DNA from: an uncultured delta proteobacterium
GTDB taxonomy: Bacteria; Desulfobacterota; Desulfobacteria; Desulfobacterales; SG8-13
Direction: 5' to 3'
Assembly: GCA_963779885.1 (NCBI GenBank)
Contig: CAWAAN010000017.1
Span: forward strand, 18,649 to 82,648
DNA length: 64,000 nucleotides
The position numbers were made by a program, and so were the translations under genes. The notes under the pieces are model-generated. The model saw only the letters and a list, made by a program, of their open reading frames with translations, was not told the origin of the DNA and did not search any database. Of this stretch, positions 53,106 through 64,000 are shown piece after piece. Position 1 is the stretch's first letter, and every line of letters starts with the position of its first letter.

Positions 53106-56100
53106 ATGATCGAAAATCTGCTGGATTCCAACATCGCCATTATCGGCGGGGGCCGTTTCTGTAAAATTTTTCTCGAATACCTGTTCGATAAGAATTTCCT
53201 GGACCGCAGTCCCAATATTCTGGGTGTCGCCGACATCAATTCCCAGGCCGAGGGGCTCCTTTTAGCCGAAAGCCTGGGACTCTTCACGACCCGCGATTAC
53301 CACGAGCTTTACCGGTTGGAAGGCCTGCAGGTCCTGATCGAAATGACCGATGATGCGTCTCTCGGCGAAACGATCCATAAAACCAAACCCGTCGGTGTCG
53401 AAATCATCGATCACATCGAGGCCCGGGCCATCTGGAGTTCGCTGCAGCTCGAACGGGAAAAGCACCAGGCCTTGAAAGAGCTGAAACACCATCAGGCTGA
53501 CTGCCCGTCGATTCTGCCGGTTTTCGAACAATTCGCCGAGCGCCTGGCCAAGGTGATCAAGAAGCGCAATGAACGCTACCTGGAAATCGAAAAAGGGTTG
53601 ATCGAAGGCGAACGCACGCTGGCCCAGATCATTCAGGGCAGCACGATGCCCACCTTTGTCATCGACCGCGATCACACCGTCACCCACTGGAACAAGGCCA
53701 TGGAACGGCTGTCAGGAACCCCGGCCAAAGAAATCGTCGGCACCAACCGGCAGTGGGCCCCCTTCTGGGAAAAGGAACGTCCCACCATGGCGGATGTGAT
53801 CCTGGACCAGGCCGACGAGCAGGCCATCAAGAATCTCTACGGAACATCCTGGCGCCGGTCCGTGCTGATCGAGGATGCTTACGAAGCCGAATATTTTTTC
53901 CCCCGGCTCGGTCCGGACGGAAAGTGGTGCTGGTTCACCGCCGCCCCGATCAAGGCGCCCGACGGAACGATCATCGGAGCGATCGAGACTCTGTGGGACA
54001 AGACCGAAGACAAAAACGCCGAGCAGGATCGCGATCGTCACAACCGGCTGCTGACCGACACGGCCCGCGCCCTGGCCGAAAGCGAAAGAACGATGACGCA
54101 GATTATCCAGGGCAGCACGATCCCGACTTTCGTCATCGACGACAATCACTTCGTGACCCATTGGAACCGGGCCCTGGAAAGACTGACCGGTTTCAGCGCC
54201 GATGATATGGTCGGCACCCGCCGGCAGTGGAAACCCTTTTACCACAACGAGCGCTCGACCATGGCCGATGCCATCCTGGACCAGGTCGACGAGACCCAGA
54301 TCAAAAAGCTCTACGGGAACAAGTGGCGCCAATCGAGCCTGATCGAAGGGGCCTACGAGGCCGAGGTTTTCTTTCCGCATTTCGGACAGAGCGGCAAATG
54401 GATCTGGTTCACCGCATCGCCGATCAAGGGCCCCAACGGCAAGGTCGCCGGGGCCATCGAAACCCTATGGGATAAAACCGAAGACAAGAAGGCCGAGGAG
54501 GAAAGGGAGCAGCGCACGCGGGAGCTGAGCACGCTGTGCTCGATCTACACGTCCCTGAACACCGCCGAAAGATTCGACGAGGGCATCTACAAGGCGATTC
54601 AGATCGTCATGGATTTCCTGGGCGCCGACGGCATCTGCATCTACATGCTGGAAAACGACGGCAAGTTCCACCTGCGCTACGGATACGGATTTTCCGAGAA
54701 GGCCTGCTTCAAAATCCGCGTGCTCGACGACAGCAGCCTCATCCACCAGGTGGCCCAGAGCGACCGGTTTACGGTGTTCGAAAACCTGCCCGAGGGCTGT
54801 TCGGACGAGATCTGCTTCCTGGAGGAGAACAAGCTCGCCTCGCTGGCCTACATCCCCATTCGCGCGGAGGAGAGAAAATCCTTTGGCGTAATCCGGATCG
54901 GCAGTCACAAACCGGGCCACTTCACCTACGCCCAGCAGGACGTTCTGGAACTGATCGGAAACCGGATCGGCGTGGCCATCGAAAACGCGATGCTGCAGGA
55001 GCAGTACATCAAATCCGAAGAGAAATACCGCACCCTGTTCAACAGCGACCCCCACCCGATTTTTATCCTGGACGCCCGGACCCACCGGATCCGCGATGTC
55101 AACCAAAGGGCCCTGGACAGCTACGGCTACTCACGCGCAGAGATGCGCGGACGTCACTTCCTTGAACTCGGAGACAGCGATGAGGAGCTGGCCCAGGCGC
55201 TGCAGAATCTCGCGCTCGACAAGTCCCTGCTCTTCGCCAAGCGCAAGCACTACCGCAGGGGTCATCGCCCGTTTTATGTCAATGTCAATATCAGCCGCGC
55301 CCGCTATGGTGAGAGCGAGGTGGTCATCGCCTCCACGACCGATATCACCGAGAGCGTCGAAAAGGAAACCCAGCTGATCCAGGCCAGCAAAATGACCACC
55401 CTGGGGCAGATGGCGGCCGGTATCGCCCATGAAATCAACCAGCCGCTAAATGTCATTCAGGTGTGCGCCGATTTTTTCCTCAAGATGATCGATCGGGGCC
55501 AGCCCATCGGCGAGGGCGACCTGCACTCGATGGCGGCCGACATCGGTAAAAACGTCCAGCGCGCGGCGTCCATCATCCAGCATATGCGCGATTTTGCGCG
55601 GCAGTCGGGTGCGACCCGCAACAAGGTCGATATCAACGATCCGATCCGCGACGTGTTCAAGGTTCTCGGTCACCAACTGCGCGTTCATCAGGTCGAACTC
55701 GTCCTCGACCTCGATGCGCACATTCCACCCATCATGGCCGATCACAACCGGTTGGAACAGGTTTTCATCAACCTGGTGACCAACGCCGTTGATGCCTTGG
55801 ACGAAAAACAGGGCCGGCCGGAGCACGCCGATTCGCCGAAGCGGCTCACGATAAAGTCCTTTGCCGAAAACGGCCTGGTGTCGGTTACCGTGGCGGATAC
55901 CGGCATCGGCATGAGCCAGGAGGTCATGGCCAAATTGTTCGAACCCTTTTTCACGACCAAGGATGTCGGCAAGGGAACCGGCCTGGGCGTGAGCATCAGC
56001 TACGGCATTGTCAGGGACTACGACGGCGACATCGAGATCGACAGCAAAATTGGAGAGGGCACCACGTTCAAACTGACTTTTCCAGCAGCGAGACAGGCTG

Positions 56101-56111
56101 AAGAGAAATGA
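53106..56111 (+). CDS. Soluble sensor histidine kinase: Rossmann-like N-domain, 2 duplicated PAS, GAF, PAS, HisKA, HATPase
   Basis: IAIIGGG; two THWN...GAIETLWDKTEDK repeats; AHEINQPL; QVFINLVTNA; DTGIGM; FFTTK..GKGTGLG. Confidence 0.92.
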   Translation: MIENLLDSNIAIIGGGRFCKIFLEYLFDKNFLDRSPNILGVADINSQAEGLLLAESLGLFTTRDYHELYRLEGLQVLIEMTDDASLGETIHKTKPVGVEIIDHIEARAIWSSLQLEREKHQALKELKHHQADCPSILPVFEQFAERLAKVIKKRNERYLEIEKGLIEGERTLAQIIQGSTMPTFVIDRDHTVTHWNKAMERLSGTPAKEIVGTNRQWAPFWEKERPTMADVILDQADEQAIKNLYGTSWRRSVLIEDAYEAEYFFPRLGPDGKWCWFTAAPIKAPDGTIIGAIETLWDKTEDKNAEQDRDRHNRLLTDTARALAESERTMTQIIQGSTIPTFVIDDNHFVTHWNRALERLTGFSADDMVGTRRQWKPFYHNERSTMADAILDQVDETQIKKLYGNKWRQSSLIEGAYEAEVFFPHFGQSGKWIWFTASPIKGPNGKVAGAIETLWDKTEDKKAEEEREQRTRELSTLCSIYTSLNTAERFDEGIYKAIQIVMDFLGADGICIYMLENDGKFHLRYGYGFSEKACFKIRVLDDSSLIHQVAQSDRFTVFENLPEGCSDEICFLEENKLASLAYIPIRAEERKSFGVIRIGSHKPGHFTYAQQDVLELIGNRIGVAIENAMLQEQYIKSEEKYRTLFNSDPHPIFILDARTHRIRDVNQRALDSYGYSRAEMRGRHFLELGDSDEELAQALQNLALDKSLLFAKRKHYRRGHRPFYVNVNISRARYGESEVVIASTTDITESVEKETQLIQASKMTTLGQMAAGIAHEINQPLNVIQVCADFFLKMIDRGQPIGEGDLHSMAADIGKNVQRAASIIQHMRDFARQSGATRNKVDINDPIRDVFKVLGHQLRVHQVELVLDLDAHIPPIMADHNRLEQVFINLVTNAVDALDEKQGRPEHADSPKRLTIKSFAENGLVSVTVADTGIGMSQEVMAKLFEPFFTTKDVGKGTGLGVSISYGIVRDYDGDIEIDSKIGEGTTFKLTFPAARQAEEK

Positions 56112-57646
56112 ACCGGATACTGCTCGTCGATGACGAGCCCGATATACTGCGGGTGCTCGGCATTTCACTGAGGGCCGACGGCTACGACGTGCAGACTGCG
56201 TCGAGCGGCGAAGAAGCCCTGGCCATTTTCACCCGCGAAACGCCCGAACTCGTCCTGACGGATATCAAAATGCCGGGCATGAACGGGATCGAGGTCTTGC
56301 GGGAAGTCAAGAAACTCAGTGACGAAACCGAGGTCATCATCATCACCGGTCACGGCGACATCGATTCGGCCGTTGAAGCCCTGCACTACGGCGCATCGGA
56401 CTTCATCAACAAACCGGTAAGGGACAAGCAGCTCGCGATCGCCCTCAAGCGCGCCCGTGAAAAAATCCGCATCAAACGGCAGCTGCGTGAGTACACCACC
56501 ACCCTCGAACACAAGATCGAGGCGGCAACGCGCGAGATACGGCGGCGTTCGAACTTCCAGGCCAAGTTGATCCGCAGCTCCAATGACGGCATCGTAGCCA
56601 CCGACGAAAAATTGAAAATCGTCATTTACAATCCCGGCGCGGAGAAGATCTTCGGCTATCCCCATCAGCACGTTCTCGACCGGATGCAGATTCAGGAACT
56701 CTACACGCCGGAAATCGCCGATCTGTTCGTGAGCGGTGTGACGAAAGAAAATGCGGCGCGTGACTTTTCCTGGCAGGAAACCTCGATCCTGTCCGCCACC
56801 GGCGACACCATTCCCGTGCGGTTTTCGGGATCGATCCTGCATGAAAAGGACCGTGAGATGGGCAGTGTCGCCTTCTTCCAGGACCTGCGCGAGATCAAGC
56901 GCCTCGAACGCGAACTTCTTAAAGCCGAGCGGCTGGCGGCCGTCGGCCAGACCGTGGCGGGCCTGGCCCATGGTCTGAAAAACATTTTGCACGGGCTCAA
57001 GGGTGGCAGCTACCTGGTTGACTTGGGAATCAAAAAAGACGATACTGCGAAGCTCAAGAGCGGCTGGGACATGATCAAGCGCAACATCGGGCGCACATCG
57101 GAACTGGTGCTCGACCTATTGACTTACTCCAAGGAAAGGGAGCCCGAATTCCAGGACTGCTACCCGAACGACGTGGCCGGGGAGGTGGCCGATCTTCTGT
57201 CTGAAAAGGCGCGGGAAGGGCGGGTCGCCATCAAGCGCTTGTTCGATCCCTCGATCTCGCGCGTGTCGATGGATCCGCGCATCATTCACAGCGCGCTGCT
57301 CAACCTCATGACAAACGCCATCGATGCCTGCCTGTTCGATGAAGACACCCATAAAAAGTGGCAGGTCGCCATCGCCTCGCGTCTCGAAGGCGGCAACACG
57401 ATCGGGTTCGAGGTCTCGGACAACGGCGCCGGCATGAGCCAAGAGGTCCAGGATCGGCTGTTTACCTCTTTTTTCAGCACGAAGGGCCATCGCGGCACGG
57501 GCCTGGGCCTGATGGTGACCCGCAAGCTTGTCGAGGAGCACGGCGGCTGGATCGAGGTGGCATCCACGCTGGGCGAGGGCACGTCCTTTACCGTCCATCT
57601 GCCCTTCGAGGCCGCCGGGGAAACCCAGGCGAACGCCGGGCGTTAA
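56108..57646 (+). CDS. Hybrid REC-PAS-histidine kinase
   Basis: LLVDDE, TDIKMPG, DFINKP; AHGLKN; DNGAGM; GTGLGL; ATGA overlap with the upstream kinase. Confidence 0.92.
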   Translation: MNRILLVDDEPDILRVLGISLRADGYDVQTASSGEEALAIFTRETPELVLTDIKMPGMNGIEVLREVKKLSDETEVIIITGHGDIDSAVEALHYGASDFINKPVRDKQLAIALKRAREKIRIKRQLREYTTTLEHKIEAATREIRRRSNFQAKLIRSSNDGIVATDEKLKIVIYNPGAEKIFGYPHQHVLDRMQIQELYTPEIADLFVSGVTKENAARDFSWQETSILSATGDTIPVRFSGSILHEKDREMGSVAFFQDLREIKRLERELLKAERLAAVGQTVAGLAHGLKNILHGLKGGSYLVDLGIKKDDTAKLKSGWDMIKRNIGRTSELVLDLLTYSKEREPEFQDCYPNDVAGEVADLLSEKAREGRVAIKRLFDPSISRVSMDPRIIHSALLNLMTNAIDACLFDEDTHKKWQVAIASRLEGGNTIGFEVSDNGAGMSQEVQDRLFTSFFSTKGHRGTGLGLMVTRKLVEEHGGWIEVASTLGEGTSFTVHLPFEAAGETQANAGR

Positions 57647-57803
57647 GCCAGCCGCGTGCCGACGCCGTTTTACCGGGAGTGTCCATCCGCTTTTTCACAA
57701 TGGGCACCGATCGGTTGGCGGTGCGGCAATGGGTCATTTTTTCACGTTCGAAAAGGGCCGTTCAAGGACGGAAAATAAAATTTTATAGACAAGGAGGATC
57801 ACC

Positions 57804-58196
57804 ATGGGTAAAAAAGTTCTGGTCGTCGATGATGACCCGGATGTCCGCCTGTTTAACGTGACGGTGCTCGAAGAACACGGGTATGCGCCGCTGGTGGCCA
57901 CCAACGGCGAGGAGGGCAAGAATCTGGCCCGGCAGGAAAAACCGGACCTGGTCCTACTCGATGTGCTCATGCCCCGCGAAAGCGGCATCCGGCTGTACCG
58001 TGAGCTTAAAACGGACAAGAATCTGAAACACATCCCCATCATCATATTGTCCGGCATCGCCGAAAAATCCTTTCTGCGCTCTCAAAAGGTACTGGCTGAG
58101 TTCGGTGACGCCACGGTCCCCGAGCCCGAAGCCTACCTCGAAAAACCGGTGGAAGCCGAAGATCTGGCTGCGACCATCAAAAAAATTCTCGGTTGA
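57804..58196 (+). CDS. Single-domain response regulator
   Basis: VLVVDDD, LLDVLMP, YLEKP; AGGAGG RBS. Confidence 0.92.
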   Translation: MGKKVLVVDDDPDVRLFNVTVLEEHGYAPLVATNGEEGKNLARQEKPDLVLLDVLMPRESGIRLYRELKTDKNLKHIPIIILSGIAEKSFLRSQKVLAEFGDATVPEPEAYLEKPVEAEDLAATIKKILG

Positions 58197-58236
58197 TGCC
58201 GTGGGCGCGGATAAAACGAGCAACGACACCCATGCC

Positions 58237-59112
58237 ATGAAAATAAAAAAGCTGCTGTTTGTCACCAAATTCGAAGAGCTGGGCCTTGACGCGCTCCAAT
58301 CGCTGCTGAGTCTGCGCAAAGCCGATCTCGAGCATGTGGTTTTTGTCAACGTCATCGAAAGAGAGCGGGTGGCCATGCGCCGCGGCACCGGATACAACAA
58401 GGCGGCGGAGGTCCGGCTGCGCGAAACCGCCAATATCCGCTTTATCGACTGGGCCGAGAACCTGTTCGAGCAGGGCATGGAGGTCGGGGTCTACATCGTG
58501 GTCGGCAGCCTGGTGGGCGAGGTCATCAAGGCCGCCCAGAAGGAGGAGGCCGACCTGATCGTCATCGGGCGGTCCCAAAAAGGAGTGATTGAACAGTTGT
58601 ATGCCGGCTCGGACGTCACCGAACTTCTGCACCGGACGGCCCGGCCCGTGCTGGTCTACAAGTATCTGTCGGAAACCTCCTTCGCCCTGGAAATGCCTTT
58701 CGAGCGGCCCGTGCTGGCAACCGACTGGTCCCCCGCCAGCCTGAAGGCCGTCGAGGTCCTGAGGGAACTCAAAGAAGTCATCAGGGAAATTCATGTCGTG
58801 CATGTCGCCGATCCCAAAGATCTCAGCGGTACGGCGATGGCGATTCAGAAGACGCGCAAGAAAATGCGCGCCCGGCTCGATGAGATCTGCGAAACATTCG
58901 AAGCCAAGGGCATATCCGCGCGTTCGCACGTCTATGTCGGCAACCCGGAACAGGAGATCGAGAAGGCGGCGCGGGAATGCCAGGCGAGCCTGATCGTCAT
59001 GGGATCGTCCGGAAAAGCCAGTTTGGTGGAACGATGGCTCGGCAGCATACCGCGCAACATCGCCGAAAAGTCGGCCTTTCCGACGCTGCTCATTCCGCCG
59101 GAAAAATTATAA
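58237..59112 (+). CDS. Tandem-domain universal stress protein
   Basis: Two USP domains: DLIVIG..GSDV, ATDWS, LIVMG..LGS. Confidence 0.9.
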   Translation: MKIKKLLFVTKFEELGLDALQSLLSLRKADLEHVVFVNVIERERVAMRRGTGYNKAAEVRLRETANIRFIDWAENLFEQGMEVGVYIVVGSLVGEVIKAAQKEEADLIVIGRSQKGVIEQLYAGSDVTELLHRTARPVLVYKYLSETSFALEMPFERPVLATDWSPASLKAVEVLRELKEVIREIHVVHVADPKDLSGTAMAIQKTRKKMRARLDEICETFEAKGISARSHVYVGNPEQEIEKAARECQASLIVMGSSGKASLVERWLGSIPRNIAEKSAFPTLLIPPEKL

Positions 59113-59129
59113 CACCACAGGAGGAATTA

Positions 59130-59885
59130 ATGGCGGTTATTACCATTTCGAGGCAATTCGGCGCGGGCGGCAAGACCGTCGGAAAAATGATCGCCGACAA
59201 ATTGGGCTACACGTTCGCCGATGACGACATCATTCAGATGGTGGCCGAAGCAGCCAACGTGTCGCCGCACTGGGTGGAGTCGATTGAAAAGGAGGCCGGC
59301 GGCAAGCTGTCGCGGGTCGTTTCCAGCATGGTTTCCAAACGCCTGGTGGACCGCATTCTCAAAGAAGAGCGCGGGTATCTGGACGAAAGGCTCTATCTGG
59401 ACTACCTGGTGGTCATCATCGCCCAGATCGCGGAGGAAGGCAACGTCGTCATTTTGGGCCGCGGCAGCCAGTACATTTTAAACGACCACCCCGACGCCTA
59501 CCACATTCTCTTGCTCAACAGCTTCGAAAACCGCACCCGGTTCATGATGGAACACTACGATTTTTCCGAAAGCCGCGCCGCCCAAATCGTCACCCGTGAA
59601 GACAAGCGCCGGCTCAATCTCTATCGAAAAATCGGCAAGACCGATTATGACGATCCGGCCCTCTACAACCTGGTGTTGAACATGGCCAGGGTCCCCGTAC
59701 CGACTGCGGTCAAGCTCATTGTGGACCTGGTGACGAACGTCGTAAGAAAACCGTCACCGGAGGGCGGAAAATGCGCCATGGCGCCGACTGGCGCACCCCT
59801 GGTCGGCGCGATGTTGTTTATGAGGGTTGAACCAGTTTGCAGACCAGCTTTTCGGCCGCATCCAGACCGACGCGGCTCATGTTGA
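59130..59885 (+). CDS. Cytidylate kinase-like family protein (true 3' end probably near 59745)
   Basis: MAVITISRQFGAGG, GNVVILGRGSQYIL, EDKRR, YNLVLN; GGAGG RBS; C-terminal tail looks like read-through. Confidence 0.85.
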   Translation: MAVITISRQFGAGGKTVGKMIADKLGYTFADDDIIQMVAEAANVSPHWVESIEKEAGGKLSRVVSSMVSKRLVDRILKEERGYLDERLYLDYLVVIIAQIAEEGNVVILGRGSQYILNDHPDAYHILLLNSFENRTRFMMEHYDFSESRAAQIVTREDKRRLNLYRKIGKTDYDDPALYNLVLNMARVPVPTAVKLIVDLVTNVVRKPSPEGGKCAMAPTGAPLVGAMLFMRVEPVCRPAFRPHPDRRGSC

Positions 59886-60433
59886 GAACCAGGTGATAAT
59901 GGACCCAGTTGTCGTAATCCTCTTTTCCGAATTTGCGATATAAGCTGGTCCTTCTTTTATCTTCGCTGTTGATCGTCTGAACGGCATGTTTGGTAAACAG
60001 CTCGTATTTTTCTTCGATGAACTTGATGCGGTATTCCCTGTCCGCCACCAGCAGGATATGAAAGGCATCCGGCGCCTCTTTGAGGATAAACTGGCTGCCG
60101 CGCCCGAGAATGACGGCATTGCCCTCCTCGGCTATTTTCGTGATGATCTTGTGCAGCAGATCGACATATATTTCTTCATCGATGTAGCCGTGCCGATCGT
60201 CTAAGAGGCGATCGAAAAAACTTTTTGATACCAGGCCCGAAATCAGCCGCTCGATTTTTCCCCCGGCTTCCTTTTCCATCGACTCAACCCACTGGGCGGA
60301 AACATTGGCCTTTTTGGCGACCATCCGGATGATTTCATCATCGTAGAAAGTCATACCCCAGTCTCTTGGCAACTCTTTTCCCCAAGGTAATGCCGCCTGC
60401 CCCGAATTGCCTGGAGATCGTCAGCACGGCCAT
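59818..60433 (-). pseudogene. Second cytidylate kinase-like family gene with a +1 frameshift near 60352
   Basis: Manual translation MAVLTISRQFGAGGITLGKRVAKRLGY then a shift to TFYDDEIIRMVAKK; span is 616 bp (3n+1). Confidence 0.85.
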
Positions 60434-60753
60434 GGTGACCTCCCTCCGAACCGTTGTGTGATTGATCCAATTTCCGCAGAAACTGCCTGAAGAACCATCC
60501 TAACCGTATTGCTTATTAAATATCAATAATTTTCACTGCCGGAAAGAAGTCCTGCACTAATACACGACAGGCGAAGTAATAAATTTTCAGCACGTTCATG
60601 GGTTGAACAGATGGCAGAAAATGAACTGAATTCTTTATTTAATAAGCACTTTAGACACAAATAACGGTTGCTTTTTTTTTCTTTTGTGGTATCAGCTGAT
60701 GACTCTCAATGCAAGTGATCGGCAATACCCCGCTCCGCAAGAGGAGCATATCA

Positions 60754-61019
60754 ATGGGACTCAATTATAAGAAAAATCGCTCATGGGCCGAAAATCTGAC
60801 CATTGTAATGCAATTGGGTTGACAATGGCGGGTTGCATCGCGTTTTGTTTTTTTATCGGCCTTAAGCTCGACAGTGGTTGGGTACCAAGGGTGTCTTCAT
60901 CACCATATTCATTATATTAGGCGTTATCGGCGGTGCTAACGTCGTCTACCGCCAGGTCATGGAGATCATCCGTGACAAGGAGATCGAGACAAACAGGGCG
61001 GCAAAATGGAATCGATTAG
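60754..61019 (+). CDS. AtpZ/AtpI-family F-ATPase accessory protein (frameshifted as read; end approximate)
   Basis: MGLNYKKNRSWAENLTIVMQLG / TMAGCIAFCFFIGLKLD / WLGTKGVFITIFIILGVIGG pieced across frames. Confidence 0.7.
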
Positions 61020-61410
61020 GAGTACCCAGAAAAAGTACGGTTCCAGGGCCTTGGCCATGGCCGTCATCGTGGGTTTCGGTGCTGTGCTTATCGGTCAGAA
61101 CTCGCTTGGGAAAGGTCTGATATTGGGGACATTTTTCAGTGTGGTCAATTTCGTCCTCATGGGTGAAACACTGCCTTTCAAACTGGGGCGGTCCGGCAAA
61201 TGAACTTTCTCGATCTCCTTGTTTTCCATCACATCCTGCGGTATCTTTTGTTGGCCGTACCCTTGGTTATGGCCGTCAAGATATGAACAATTCCACATTG
61301 ATATCGGCAATCATCGGTATCTTCATGGTACAGGTCGTTATCGTCGCAGATCACGTTGGCAAACAAATTCCGGATGACACCGAAAAAAAACATCCTGAGA
61401 GTAAACAACA
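61006..61410 (+). CDS. atpI: ATP synthase subunit I-like protein (in-frame TGA at 61201 and frameshifts as read; end approximate)
   Basis: GKGLILGTFFSVVNFVLMG; position before atpB; hydrophobic continuation in other frames. Confidence 0.65.
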
Positions 61411-61411
61411 A

Positions 61412-62077
61412 ATGGAAGAACTCGGTCAAGTCCACCAGCTGATCATAACGGTCTTCGGCTACCCAATCACCTTGAATCTCGAAGTGATCGTCATGACATG
61501 GATCGTGGTCACGTGCTTCTCGCATTTTCGGTCTAGCGGCCGGCAGGAAAAAGTCGTATCGTTCCCGGCCGTTCAGGTCATAGGGGAATTGTTCGATCGA
61601 ACAATTCTACATACTGACCGAAGATGCATTCGACAAGGAAAAAGCCAGGATTTACGCCCCCTCATCTTGCGCCCTTTATGTTCCTGCTGTTGAGAACTGG
61701 ATTGGGATCATCCCGCACCTGGAAGAGCCGACCAAGGACCTGAATACGCCATTGAGCCTCGGCCTCATGGGATTTGTTCTCGCCCACTATGCCGCAATCA
61801 AGTCAAAGGGGTTCAAGGCTTACTCAAGGAGTATTTTCAGCCCATGTTCTTCATGATGCCGTTAAACGTCATCGGTGAACTGGCAAAGATAGTTTCCATT
61901 TCTTTCCGTCTCTTCGGCAATATCATGGGAGGTTCCATCATCATACTGGTGGTGTCATACCTGTCATACAACATGATTTTACCGCCTTTTCTCAACGCGT
62001 TTTTCGGCCTTTTTGTCGGTACTGTCCAGGCGTTCGTCTTCACGATGCTGACGTCGTCTATATTTCCGTACAGGTGA
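61412..62077 (+). CDS. atpB: F0 subunit a (multiple frameshifts as read)
   Basis: VIVMTWIV, EEPTKDLNTPL, PLNVIGELAKIVSISFRLFGNIMGG (essential Arg), TVQAFVFTML. Confidence 0.88.
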
Positions 62078-62084
62078 AATACCT

Positions 62085-63064
62085 ATGGAAGATTTCCAGA
62101 TATCTGGGTTAAGTGGCGGCGTTTCGGGCGGCGGCATCGCCATCGGCTTCGGCGCCATCGGGGCGGCCATCGGGGAGGGCTACACGGCCGGCAGGCCATT
62201 GGCCGCGATATCCCGCAATCCCCAAATTTCCGGCGATATTTTCAAGACCATGCTGGTGGGCCAGGCGATGGCGGAATCGGCATCCATATTTCGCGCTGGT
62301 CGTCGCCATGATCTTGCTGTTCTCGAATACTTCCATGCGCGAGCTTATGTGACGGTCGCGGCATTGCTTGCCGCTGGACTGTCGATGGGTTTCGGCGCTA
62401 TCGGTGCAGGCGTCGGGTCCGGGATGCCCGGCGGCGCGGCCTGCATCGGTATGGCCCGCCAACCCGCCATGCAGGGCCGCCTGACCACCAACATGCTGAT
62501 CGGATCGGCGGTGTGCCAGACGCCCGCGATCTTTGCCCTGGTGGTCTCGTTTATGCTTTTGTTTTGGATTTTTCGGCCCGAACCGGTGAACCCGACCTGG
62601 GCGGCCGTACATGGGCGCGGGCCTGGCCGCCGGGCTTTCGGCGATCGGCTCGGGCATCGGGGGCGGCGTCGTCGCCCGGGCAAGCTGTGAGGGTATCGCC
62701 CGGCAGCCGCGACGGTCGCACCGGTCACCAACGTCATGCTGCTCGGCCAGGCCGTCACCCAGACACCGGCCATTTTCGGGCTTCTCGTCAGTTTTATCCT
62801 GATCTTCAAGAAGTTCGATCCCATCCCAGGCCCTGGCGCCGCTGCAATCGCCCTGCTGGCATCCGGTATCTGCACGGGCCTTGGCGGCATCGGCCCAGGA
62901 ATAGGCGAGGGCATCGCCGCCAGCGGTGGCGTGAAATGGGTCGCGCAGGAAACGTCTCGTATGCCGGACCGATCTCACCCGCACGATGCTGGTCGGCAGG
63001 CGGTCGCCGAATCCACTGCGATTTATTCCATGGTGATTGCCTGGTTCTGATATTCGTCGTCTAA
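62085..63064 (+). CDS. atpE: Long F0 c-like subunit with four tandem c hairpins (frameshifted as read)
   Basis: Four GxGxxGxxxG helix-1 / MLxGxAxx[EQ] helix-2 units: QAMAESASIF, SAVCQTPAIF, QAVTQTPAIF, QAVAESTAIY. Confidence 0.8.
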
Positions 63065-63184
63065 TGCGCAAAGCCAGGACGGCGTTCATAAAAACCACCT
63101 ATAATTCAGTGTTCCAGGCAGACGGATGATATCCGGGACTTTTCTCTAACCCGAAGTACAAATCGATTCAATCAGGAGGATAAC

Positions 63185-63433
63185 ATGGCCATCGAAGGTG
63201 CAGATCTCGTCAAGGCAGCGGCGTTTTTAGGTGCAGGAATTGCAATGGGGCTCGGTGCGATCGGCCCCGGTGTCGGCGAAGGCATCACAGCGGCAAAAGC
63301 CTGTGAGGCGATCGGCCACAATCCGAAAGAGGCCGGCCTGCTGACCCGGACCATGCTCGTCGGACAGGCCGTGGCCGAGTCGACCGGCATTTACTCTCTG
63401 GTTATCGCGTTGTTGCTTCTCTTTGTGGTTTAG
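63185..63433 (+). CDS. atpE: F0 subunit c, Na+-binding type
   Basis: GPGVGEG and QAVAESTGIY; AGGAGG RBS; intact 82-aa ORF. Confidence 0.95.
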   Translation: MAIEGADLVKAAAFLGAGIAMGLGAIGPGVGEGITAAKACEAIGHNPKEAGLLTRTMLVGQAVAESTGIYSLVIALLLLFVV

Positions 63434-63659: not shown

Positions 63660-64000
63660 ATGGAGATCATCAGCAATATTGCCTTAATCAGCGATCAATG
63701 AAACCCTGTTCATCCAGTTGATTACTTTCTTGATCTTTCTCTTTATCATCAACCGGATCATGATCCAGCCGTTGCGCGATGTCACGCATGAACGCGAAGC
63801 CCACATCCAGAAAATCCAACTGGATTCAACGGCAGCCGGACAGAAAGTGGACCAGTTGCTGAAACAGATCGCGAAGCAGGAAACGAAAGTCATAAATACG
63901 GCCAATGACATCCGGGAAAAAATCGAGGGGTCCGGCAAACACGAGGCGGACGAAATCGTGCAAGAAGCTCACCGCGAAGTCGAGAAGCTGTCACAGGCAA
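63660..64000 (+). CDS. atpF: F0 subunit b/b' (partial; extra G at about 63693)
   Basis: MEIISNIALIS / INETLFIQLITFLIFLFIINRIMIQPLRDVTHERE followed by a coiled coil. Confidence 0.8.

What the first reader, a model, noticed from the sequence alone, without database searches (positions are those of the whole stretch)
62085..63433. Four-hairpin F0 c subunit (E/Q/Q/E) next to a single Na+-type c subunit: candidate hybrid rotor
Seen: about 980 bp encode four consecutive c-like hairpins with no evident intergenic gaps. The ion-binding Glu is kept in hairpins 1 (ESASIF) and 4 (ESTAIY) and replaced by Gln in 2 and 3 (QTPAIF). The following 82-aa c has E in helix 1 and ESTGIY. Established: that motif matches Na+ c-rings (Ilyobacter/Fusobacterium type), and Acetobacterium woodii builds a heteromeric ring with a two-hairpin c1 lacking one site. 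Inference: an 8-TM subunit with two silent positions would lower the ion/ATP ratio and could tune the enzyme between synthesis and pumping.
Basis: partly seen in the sequence, partly recalled or inferred. Interest (0 to 1): 0.75.

Follow-up and report, generated by a model that had tools for sequence, protein, structure and literature searches.

The report
Four-hairpin rotor subunit, spare sodium motor
This sulfate-reducer relative carries, in a second membrane-motor operon that has no catalytic head of its own, a conserved ATP-synthase rotor gene made of four fused units, two of them ion-blind, which likely forms a mixed ring with the normal rotor subunit and would lower the number of ions moved per ATP.

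Summary
Real, though the window's copy is garbled. Four c-subunit hairpins (62085-63064) precede an intact 82-aa Na+-type c. Twelve indels break the frame; they lie in a local error patch, and short-read contigs of four runs (one study) lack those they cover. Intact 321-326-aa homologues are common in Desulfobacterales, including cultured Desulfosarcina; dN/dS is about 0.05; the model has 8 helices (pLDDT 96), closest to A. woodii c1. The operon (atpZ-I-B-E_long-E-F'-F) has no F1. The genome also has an H+-type F0 and one F1; subunit a outnumbers beta in 21 of 21 carriers, and equals gamma in 13 of 13 non-carriers. Ligand-donor residues follow ring geometry: hairpin 4 keeps STxxY in 211 of 211. 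Correction: E/Q/Q/E is not two Na+ sites here. In this subtype hairpin 3 lacks the Thr/Tyr donors, so site 4 is likely H+-type or weak. Best reading: a hybrid c-ring with a two-hairpin blind arc, docking on the shared F1, likely biased to pumping. Ring membership, stoichiometry and expression are untested. This scan found the family before on other genomes. I found no published description of the long subunit, but the key 2015 survey was not available.

The parts
60754..61006 (+). atpZ/atpQ-like small membrane gene (gene 1), broken by indels in this assembly
   Evidence: tblastn of the relative's 85-aa protein in three pieces; Pfam ATPase_gene1, weak, below cut-off
61006..61400 (+). atpI (ring assembly factor), broken by indels; end approximate
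   Evidence: tblastn pieces 61006-61357; Pfam ATP-synt_I, E 0.001, below cut-off
61412..62080 (+). atpB, subunit a (224 aa in relatives), broken by indels; end approximate
   Evidence: tblastn; Pfam ATP-synt_A; the conserved Arg is kept in 76 of 76 linked a subunits aligned
62085..63064 (+). four-hairpin c subunit gene (323 aa in relatives), frame broken by 12 indels in this assembly
   Evidence: intact homologues
62085..62330 (+). hairpin 1: Glu in helix 1 (62175-62177) and Glu in ESASIF (62274-62276); predicted complete Na+ site using donors from the preceding subunit; its own donor positions are Ala and Phe
   Evidence: helix-2 E 211/211, A 208/211, F 211/211
62331..62575 (+). hairpin 2, ion-blind: QTPAIF (Gln 62517-62519), RQP loop
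   Evidence: Q 211/211; loop Arg 206/211
62576..62820 (+). hairpin 3, ion-blind: QTPAI(F/L) (Gln 62760-62762); lacks the Thr and Tyr donors for site 4
62821..63064 (+). hairpin 4: Glu in helix 1 (62907-62909), Met at E-4, Glu in ESTAIY (63009-63011); atypical two-carboxylate site; donates S-T-Y to the next subunit
   Evidence: S, T, Y each 211/211
63185..63433 (+). single-hairpin c subunit, 82 aa, intact, E32 / E65-S66-T67 / Y70 (two-carboxylate Na+ motif)
   Evidence: motif identical in 75 of 75 distinct linked small c sequences; site chemistry from PMC3692424
63660..64000 (+). atpF' (b'), runs off the window; atpF (b) follows outside it; no F1 genes downstream
   Evidence: Pfam ATP-synt_B; contig continuation (L043); tblastn

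Best explanation
The gene encodes a conserved four-hairpin c subunit in a second, F1-less F0 operon; it likely co-assembles with the single-hairpin Na+-type c into a hybrid rotor ring that is predicted to dock, through the operon's own a, b' and b, on the cell's one standard F1. Shown: the fused gene, its conservation, the operon, the surplus of F0 over F1. Inferred: hairpin 1 forms a full Na+ site with the subunit before it; hairpins 2 and 3 are ion-blind spacers; hairpin 4 hands S-T-Y ligands to the next subunit, and its own two-glutamate site, lacking Thr/Tyr donors in this subtype, is likely H+-preferring or weak. With one long subunit in an assumed 11-hairpin ring, 8-9 sites remain instead of 11 (2.7-3.0 ions per ATP instead of 3.7). 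The two adjacent blind hairpins leave an arc of about 98 degrees without an ion-driven step, which F1 can drive through when it hydrolyses ATP but which must be crossed thermally against load in synthesis. The module would therefore mainly act as an ATP-driven Na+ pump able to build a steeper gradient, while the H+-type F0 makes ATP.
For: Intact 316-347-aa homologues: 119 of the best 120 hits, the other being the window's own fragment. 108 of 109 loci hold an unbroken 4-hairpin ORF and 102 of 109 hold the small c in the same locus. dN/dS 0.04-0.06 among three same-subtype relatives. AF2 model of a close relative: 8 long helices, pLDDT 95.9; best fold and sequence match A. woodii c1, 4BEM_J. 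Donor residues follow ring direction: in 211 distinct sequences hairpin 4 keeps S-T-x-x-Y in all, though 107 lack its own Glu, and hairpin 1, which precedes a blind hairpin, has Phe in all. In 23 phylum-wide ORFs with 3-5 hairpins an internal hairpin has the Tyr in 13 of 14 cases before a live site and 1 of 50 before a dead one. Direction of donation from PMC2359735 and the 2026 preprint. Loop Arg kept in 202-211 of 211 per hairpin. One F1 and a separate H+-type F0 in this genome; a outnumbers beta in 21 of 21 carrier genomes; a equals gamma in 13 of 13 same-order genomes without the long gene. Work across two blind hairpins 11-18 kT against 4-6 kT for a normal step (rough estimate). The genome has rnfD.
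Against: The donor pattern fits a ring of long subunits alone as well as a mixed ring. In the 50%-identity representatives the Tyr rule fails (2 of 15 before a live site), mostly in a more distant family. Enzymes with fewer sites do make ATP, at low driving force (E. callanderi 87 mV, A. woodii 90 mV; PMC9171764), though with single blind gaps only. All 5 single-contig genomes checked already have a third, complete ATPase cluster with its own gamma, probably N-type, so a further Na+ pump looks redundant there. Sequence-based ion calls failed for the B. pseudomallei N-type ring (PMC5376962). Carrier genomes are related, so the counts are not independent. The ring size of 11 is assumed.
Confidence: 0.55

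Rival explanations
1. Same hybrid ring on the shared F1, but working as a Na+-driven ATP synthase that spends fewer ions per ATP, fed by Rnf, as argued for acetogens.
For: A. woodii and C. aceticum hybrid rotors are read this way (PMC7911925); reduced-site enzymes synthesise ATP at 87-90 mV (PMC9171764); a Na+-pumping Rnf2 is abundant in Desulfobacteraceae (PMC11887813); closed genomes already have another probable Na+ pump.
Against: Two or three consecutive blind hairpins (98-131 degrees) have no precedent among the tested synthases I read about; estimated barrier 11-24 kT; the thermodynamic threshold rises from about 127 to 155-175 mV at 45 kJ/mol.
Confidence: 0.25
2. The long subunit is mainly structural: it nucleates ring assembly or gives the gamma/epsilon stalk of the shared F1 a fixed docking surface, and the lost ion sites are a side effect.
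For: Loop Arg is near-invariant in all four hairpins (202, 206, 211, 208 of 211) but present in only 21 of 75 small c (Lys in 47); blind hairpins are about as conserved as live ones.
Against: Hairpin number (3-5) and number of live sites vary across the phylum with matched changes in donor residues, which points to selection on site count. Lys may replace Arg. Not exclusive with the best reading.
Confidence: 0.1
3. The long subunit forms its own ring (for example three copies, 12 hairpins, 3-6 sites), an alternative rotor exchanged with a ring of small c.
For: Hairpin 4 could donate to hairpin 1 of the next long copy; two loci hold a long gene without any neighbouring atp gene (L050, L052).
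Against: The small c lies in the same locus in 102 of 109 loci and 25 of 26 phylum loci; the precedent with this gene order is a mixed ring; a one-site type would give 1 ion per ATP.
Confidence: 0.06
4. In this particular genome atpZ-I-B-E_long is a decayed pseudogene block, so the frameshifts are real.
For: The indels are confined to these genes; no run held half of the sampled words and no contig spans the gene, so the contigs may come from other strains.
Against: The patch also covers intergenic DNA on both sides; contigs nearly identical to the window nearby lack the indels; all key residues are still readable.
Confidence: 0.04

Closest known systems
Acetobacterium woodii (and Clostridium aceticum) c1 subunit, F/V-hybrid Na+ c-ring, PDB 4BEM
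   Same: Fused c gene between atpB and a single-hairpin atpE; first hairpin live, Glu-to-Gln blind hairpin; best structural and sequence match; ring of 9 small + 1 fused subunit as cited in PMC9171764.
   Different: Four hairpins instead of two; two or three blind positions in a row; operon without F1 genes; a second, H+-type F0 in the same cell; subtype with an atypical fourth site.
Fusobacterium nucleatum c11 ring, two-carboxylate Na+ site (PDB 3ZK1)
   Same: The small c and hairpin 1 carry E32 and E65; the small c also S66, T67, Y70 (for the chemistry, for the residues).
   Different: That ring is homomeric, with 11 live sites.
N-ATPase
   Same: An additional, likely Na+-coupled rotary module beside the main ATP synthase.
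   Different: N-ATPases bring their own alpha, beta, gamma, epsilon and a long b; this operon has none of the F1 genes, scores far below the alternate-ATPase a and b cut-offs, and coexists with a probable N-type cluster in 5 of 5 single-contig genomes.
Burkholderia pseudomallei N-type c17 ring
   Same: Two glutamates with Thr at +1 and a non-polar residue at +2, measured as H+-selective (PMC5376962): a precedent for site 4 of the window's subtype.
   Different: It keeps the Tyr, is homomeric, and has Met where this site has Pro.
Archaeal multi-hairpin A-type K subunits (M. jannaschii 3 hairpins, M. kandleri 13)
   Same: Gene fusion of hairpins, with loss of sites in some (PMC2359735).
   Different: A/V-type enzymes with a single K gene; here F-type hairpins beside a single c.
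Ectopic second F0 set of Desulfococcus oleovorans (PMC4154653)
   Same: A duplicated a-c-b'-b set with no duplicated F1 in a Desulfobacterales genome is already in print.
   Different: The passages seen treat it as a species-level duplication or transfer and do not mention a long c; whether it is this module was not checked.

Membership tests
F-type c subunit (ATP-synt_C) | Helical hairpins matching PF00137 / TIGR01260 with Gly-rich helix 1 and polar loop | tested here: met
   (four stretches; F-type models far above V-type K)
Na+-binding c site (Ilyobacter/Fusobacterium type), small c and site 1 | E/Q32 and E65 on one hairpin; S66, T67, Y70 on the preceding hairpin | tested here: met
   small c 75 of 75; hairpin 1 helix-1 Glu 210 of 211 (one gap), helix-2 Glu 211 of 211; donors from small c or hairpin 4. 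Sequence test only.
Na+-binding c site, site 4 of the window's subtype | Preceding hairpin supplies S/T, S/T and Tyr | tested here: not met
   hairpin 3 is T-P-x-x-L in 35 of 211 sequences incl. the closest relatives, and T-P-x-x-F in the window; met in 66 sequences of the sister subtype
Na+-binding c site | Na+ protects against DCCD/NCD-4; Na+-dependent activity | not testable with these tools
   needs protein
F/V-hybrid rotor (A. woodii type) | Fused c gene with lost site(s) and single-hairpin c gene in one F-type operon | tested here: met
F/V-hybrid rotor (A. woodii type) | Fused subunit has two hairpins (four helices), one site | tested here: not met
   four hairpins, eight helices
F/V-hybrid rotor (A. 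woodii type) | Operon also encodes F1 (delta, alpha, gamma, beta, epsilon) | tested here: not met
   no F1 genes beside the operon; one F1 elsewhere
F/V-hybrid rotor (A. woodii type) | Both subunits in one physical ring | not tested
N-ATPase | atpD-C-Q-R-B-E-F-A-G order with own F1, no delta | tested here: not met

The most novel reading that the evidence does not exclude
Desulfobacterales swap one F1 head between an H+ motor and a Na+ motor. The Na+ motor's rotor holds a built-in blind arc of two or three hairpins that acts as a kinetic one-way valve, and in the window's subtype (also Desulfosarcina alkanivorans) the same ring carries one proton-selective site among sodium sites: a mixed-ion rotor.
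Probability: 0.2. Interest if true: 0.85.

Novelty: new variant of a known kind. Interest (0 to 1): 0.6.

Why it matters
The ion/ATP ratio of the c-ring sets the energy budget of cells that live near the thermodynamic limit. The one structurally solved hybrid F-type ring has a single blind position. Here a widespread group of sediment sulfate reducers appears to carry rotor cassettes with 3-5 fused hairpins and 1-3 glutamate-bearing positions, in a motor without its own F1. Natural variants in cultured strains (D. widdelii one site, D. variabilis two full sites, D. alkanivorans one full and one atypical site) make it directly testable how large a gap an F0 motor can cross, whether one F1 serves two F0 types, and whether one ring can mix ion specificities. 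Energy models of these bacteria that assume a uniform ring would need revision.

Tried and rejected
Separate genes: rejected, since relatives have one open frame. N-ATPase: rejected on gene content. V-type K subunit: rejected, F-type models score far higher. Plasmid carriage: no match at E 1e-20. Expression: no RNA holder listed, which is no evidence either way; the proteome supplements of PMC11887813 were too large to read; the D. multivorans supplement lists only the 93-aa c, the 229-aa a and F1 as its ATP synthase, and I did not check whether that genome has the long gene. Complex prediction of long c with small c: not available, nothing was folded. Co-variation of subunit a with c subtype: only two weak positions. 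Conserved functional neighbours: none beyond the operon; the commonest are heme-synthesis and housekeeping-like genes in 25-40 of 80 loci (named by eye, not by family scan). One origin of the window's subtype: neither shown nor rejected (2 changes on the careful tree, AU p 0.39). Names for the distant 317-321-aa family: none on record for 9 of 10 proteins looked up. Literature: ten full-text searches turned up no description of a four-hairpin F-type c in what I read; Brandt and Muller 2015 and Matthies 2014 are not held.

Full report
Observation. The window holds four c-like hairpins from 62085 to the stop at 63062-63064, spread over all three frames, then an intact 82-aa c at 63185-63433. Pfam ATP-synt_C matches each piece. 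Against two same-genus genomes with an unbroken 972-bp gene (88% and 87% identity) the window has 12 indel events, net +8 bases. Gap openings cluster at 60500-63250 (1-12 per 250 bases) and break atpZ, atpI and atpB too, while most flanking bins have 0-3. Contigs from four short-read runs of one study lack the window's indels at 62288, 62329, 62611, 62823 and 62998 wherever they cover them. They may be other strains and none spans the gene, so an assembly error patch is very likely but not proven.

Family. The first ORF finds 2076 proteins; 119 of the best 120 are 316-347 aa, the other is the window's own fragment. Of 109 loci, 108 hold one 4-hairpin ORF and 102 the small c in the same locus; of the other seven, four end at the locus edge, one is frameshifted, two are orphans. 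In an even draw from the phylum, 26 of 250 other genomes match at E 1e-25; their loci give 23 ORFs with 3-5 detected hairpins (one hairpin of L150 was missed by my profile), two 2-hairpin ORFs and one cut ORF. dN/dS among three same-subtype genes is 0.04-0.06. AlphaFold on a close relative (P0002) gives eight long helices, pLDDT 95.9; the best PDB match by fold and by sequence is A. woodii c1.

Sites. In c-rings the ion sits between neighbours: E32 and E65 from one hairpin, V63 and S66 from the adjacent one, with T67 and Y70 completing the site (PMC3692424, passages). In fused subunits the donors come from the preceding hairpin (PMC2359735, passages; bioRxiv 10.64898/2026.10.01.756066, passages; its supplements are closed). 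I aligned 211 distinct 4-hairpin sequences (226 before removing duplicates; the five-unit-like P0007 was left out; the set is biased towards the query). Hairpin 1 has the helix-2 Glu in 211, hairpin 2 Gln in 211, hairpin 3 Gln in 210. Hairpin 4 keeps S, T and Y in all 211 although 107 lack its Glu. Hairpin 1, which precedes a blind hairpin, has Ala (208) and Phe (211) at the donor positions. Three subtypes appear: 106 with one site (hairpin 4 N/Q); 66 with two complete sites (hairpin 3 T-T-x-x-Y; one of them has a third Glu); 38 with Glu in hairpin 4 but Pro at the Thr position, 35 of them T-P-x-x-L with E/M/E; one further sequence fits none. The window belongs to the last group. In the phylum loci an internal hairpin has Tyr in 13 of 14 cases before a live site and 1 of 50 before a dead one; in the 50%-identity representatives the same rule fails (2 of 15), mostly in a distant family. 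So the donor pattern is what selection for ring packing predicts, and the window's site 4 is the exception. A two-glutamate site with a non-polar residue at +2 was measured as H+-selective in the B. pseudomallei ring (PMC5376962, passages), which suggests, but does not show, that site 4 is a proton site. On trees built without the trait columns the one-site subtype is one clade (100/100); the window's subtype is clustered, and a single origin is neither shown nor rejected.

Context. The operon is atpZ-atpI-atpB-E_long-E-b'-b with no F1 genes. The genome (88% complete) has a second F0 on contig C22 whose c reads IESLCIY with Leu and no helix-1 acid, read as H+-type, and one F1 operon with its own b'b. 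The two a subunits are 34% identical, the b pairs 23-24%. Among 23 handles chosen as carriers I dropped one duplicate genome and one without an atpD above cut-off; in the other 21 each has one standard beta (five have a second, lower-scoring one beside a third a), and a outnumbers beta in all 21. In 13 of 13 same-order genomes without the long gene a equals gamma. Five single-contig genomes show at least three c loci and two gamma genes each. A second F0 set without F1 was noted in print for Desulfococcus oleovorans (PMC4154653, passages and one supplementary row), and two to four atpE copies for Desulfatiglans relatives (PMC13343851, passages); neither passage mentions a fused subunit.

Mechanism. 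Inferred: long and small c co-assemble, as in A. woodii (9+1 ring cited in PMC9171764; C. aceticum in PMC7911925), and the module binds the shared F1. With an assumed 11-hairpin ring and one long copy, 8-9 sites remain; the synthesis threshold at 45 kJ/mol rises from 127 to 155-175 mV. The step across two blind hairpins spans about 98 degrees and costs 11-18 kT against mean load, against 4-6 kT for a normal step; three blind hairpins cost 15-24 kT (a rough estimate that ignores the ion's own contribution and elastic detail). Hydrolysis crosses such an arc freely, so I lean to an ATP-driven Na+ pump feeding Rnf and Na+ symporters (rnfD present; PMC11887813 and PMC5109826, passages). Against this: enzymes with fewer sites synthesise ATP at low force, and closed genomes already carry another probable pump. 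Architecture I put near 0.8, the pump bias near 0.55 overall.

Novelty. It works like the A. woodii hybrid rotor but fails two of its defining features (two hairpins; F1 in the operon). Ten library searches gave no description of the long subunit in the passages I read; for most listed papers I saw only the search listing. PMC3543383 and PMC2702500 (passages) say nothing on it. Brandt and Muller 2015 is not held; as I recall its abstract, it lists twelve anaerobes with one F-type and one V-type c gene, and I cannot tell whether four-hairpin forms are among them. Matthies 2014 is not held either. This scan reported the family before: eight notes by sequence and two by words, one marked as partly fallen without detail; I had reached the same reading before the look-up and tested it here. 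What this window adds is the atypical fourth site, the non-carrier control and the blind-arc argument.

Verdict. A real, conserved, widespread and testable variant of the hybrid rotor, seen here through a sequencing error patch. Interest 0.6.

Noticed in passing
window 60500-63250, with a further indel near 63690: A local patch of dense indels and substitutions breaks atpZ, atpI, atpB and the long c, and one more breaks the start of b'; annotation of this assembly will show these as fragments.
   Followed up: yes
L050:9995-10972 and L052:9995-10972: Orphan copies of the four-hairpin gene with no atp neighbours; the genome of L050 also has the full operon (L061).
   Followed up: partly
L041:9131-12213 (G034:C64): Rearranged operon a, c, b', b, long c; this long c has three glutamate-bearing hairpins (E/Q/E/E), and the F1 genes lie about 12 kb away on the other strand.
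   Followed up: partly
L092 and L119 long ORFs: Independent drift of site 4 to Ile in helix 1 and Pro at the Thr position with Glu kept, an H+-like pattern, inside the two-site subtype.
   Followed up: partly
G022:C184 and C236 (L024): One genome with two long-c loci and three a subunits but one standard beta.
   Followed up: no
proteins P0191, P0201, P0204-P0270: A second, distant family of about 320-aa four-hairpin proteins with pattern E/Q/E/(E or D) and no names on record; taxon unknown.
   Followed up: partly
protein P0124 (434 aa): Five fused hairpins, all with Glu, Ile or Leu in helix 1 and Met at E-4: an all-live, H+-like fusion.
   Followed up: no
window 59130-60372: Two similar genes (about 63-69% identical DNA) face each other on opposite strands upstream of the operon; by eye cytidylate-kinase-like; the arrangement recurs in same-genus genomes.
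   Followed up: no
window 53106-59112: Two PAS histidine kinases, a response regulator and a universal-stress-like protein (named by eye) upstream; kept in same-genus genomes but not in most of the 80 other loci.
   Followed up: partly
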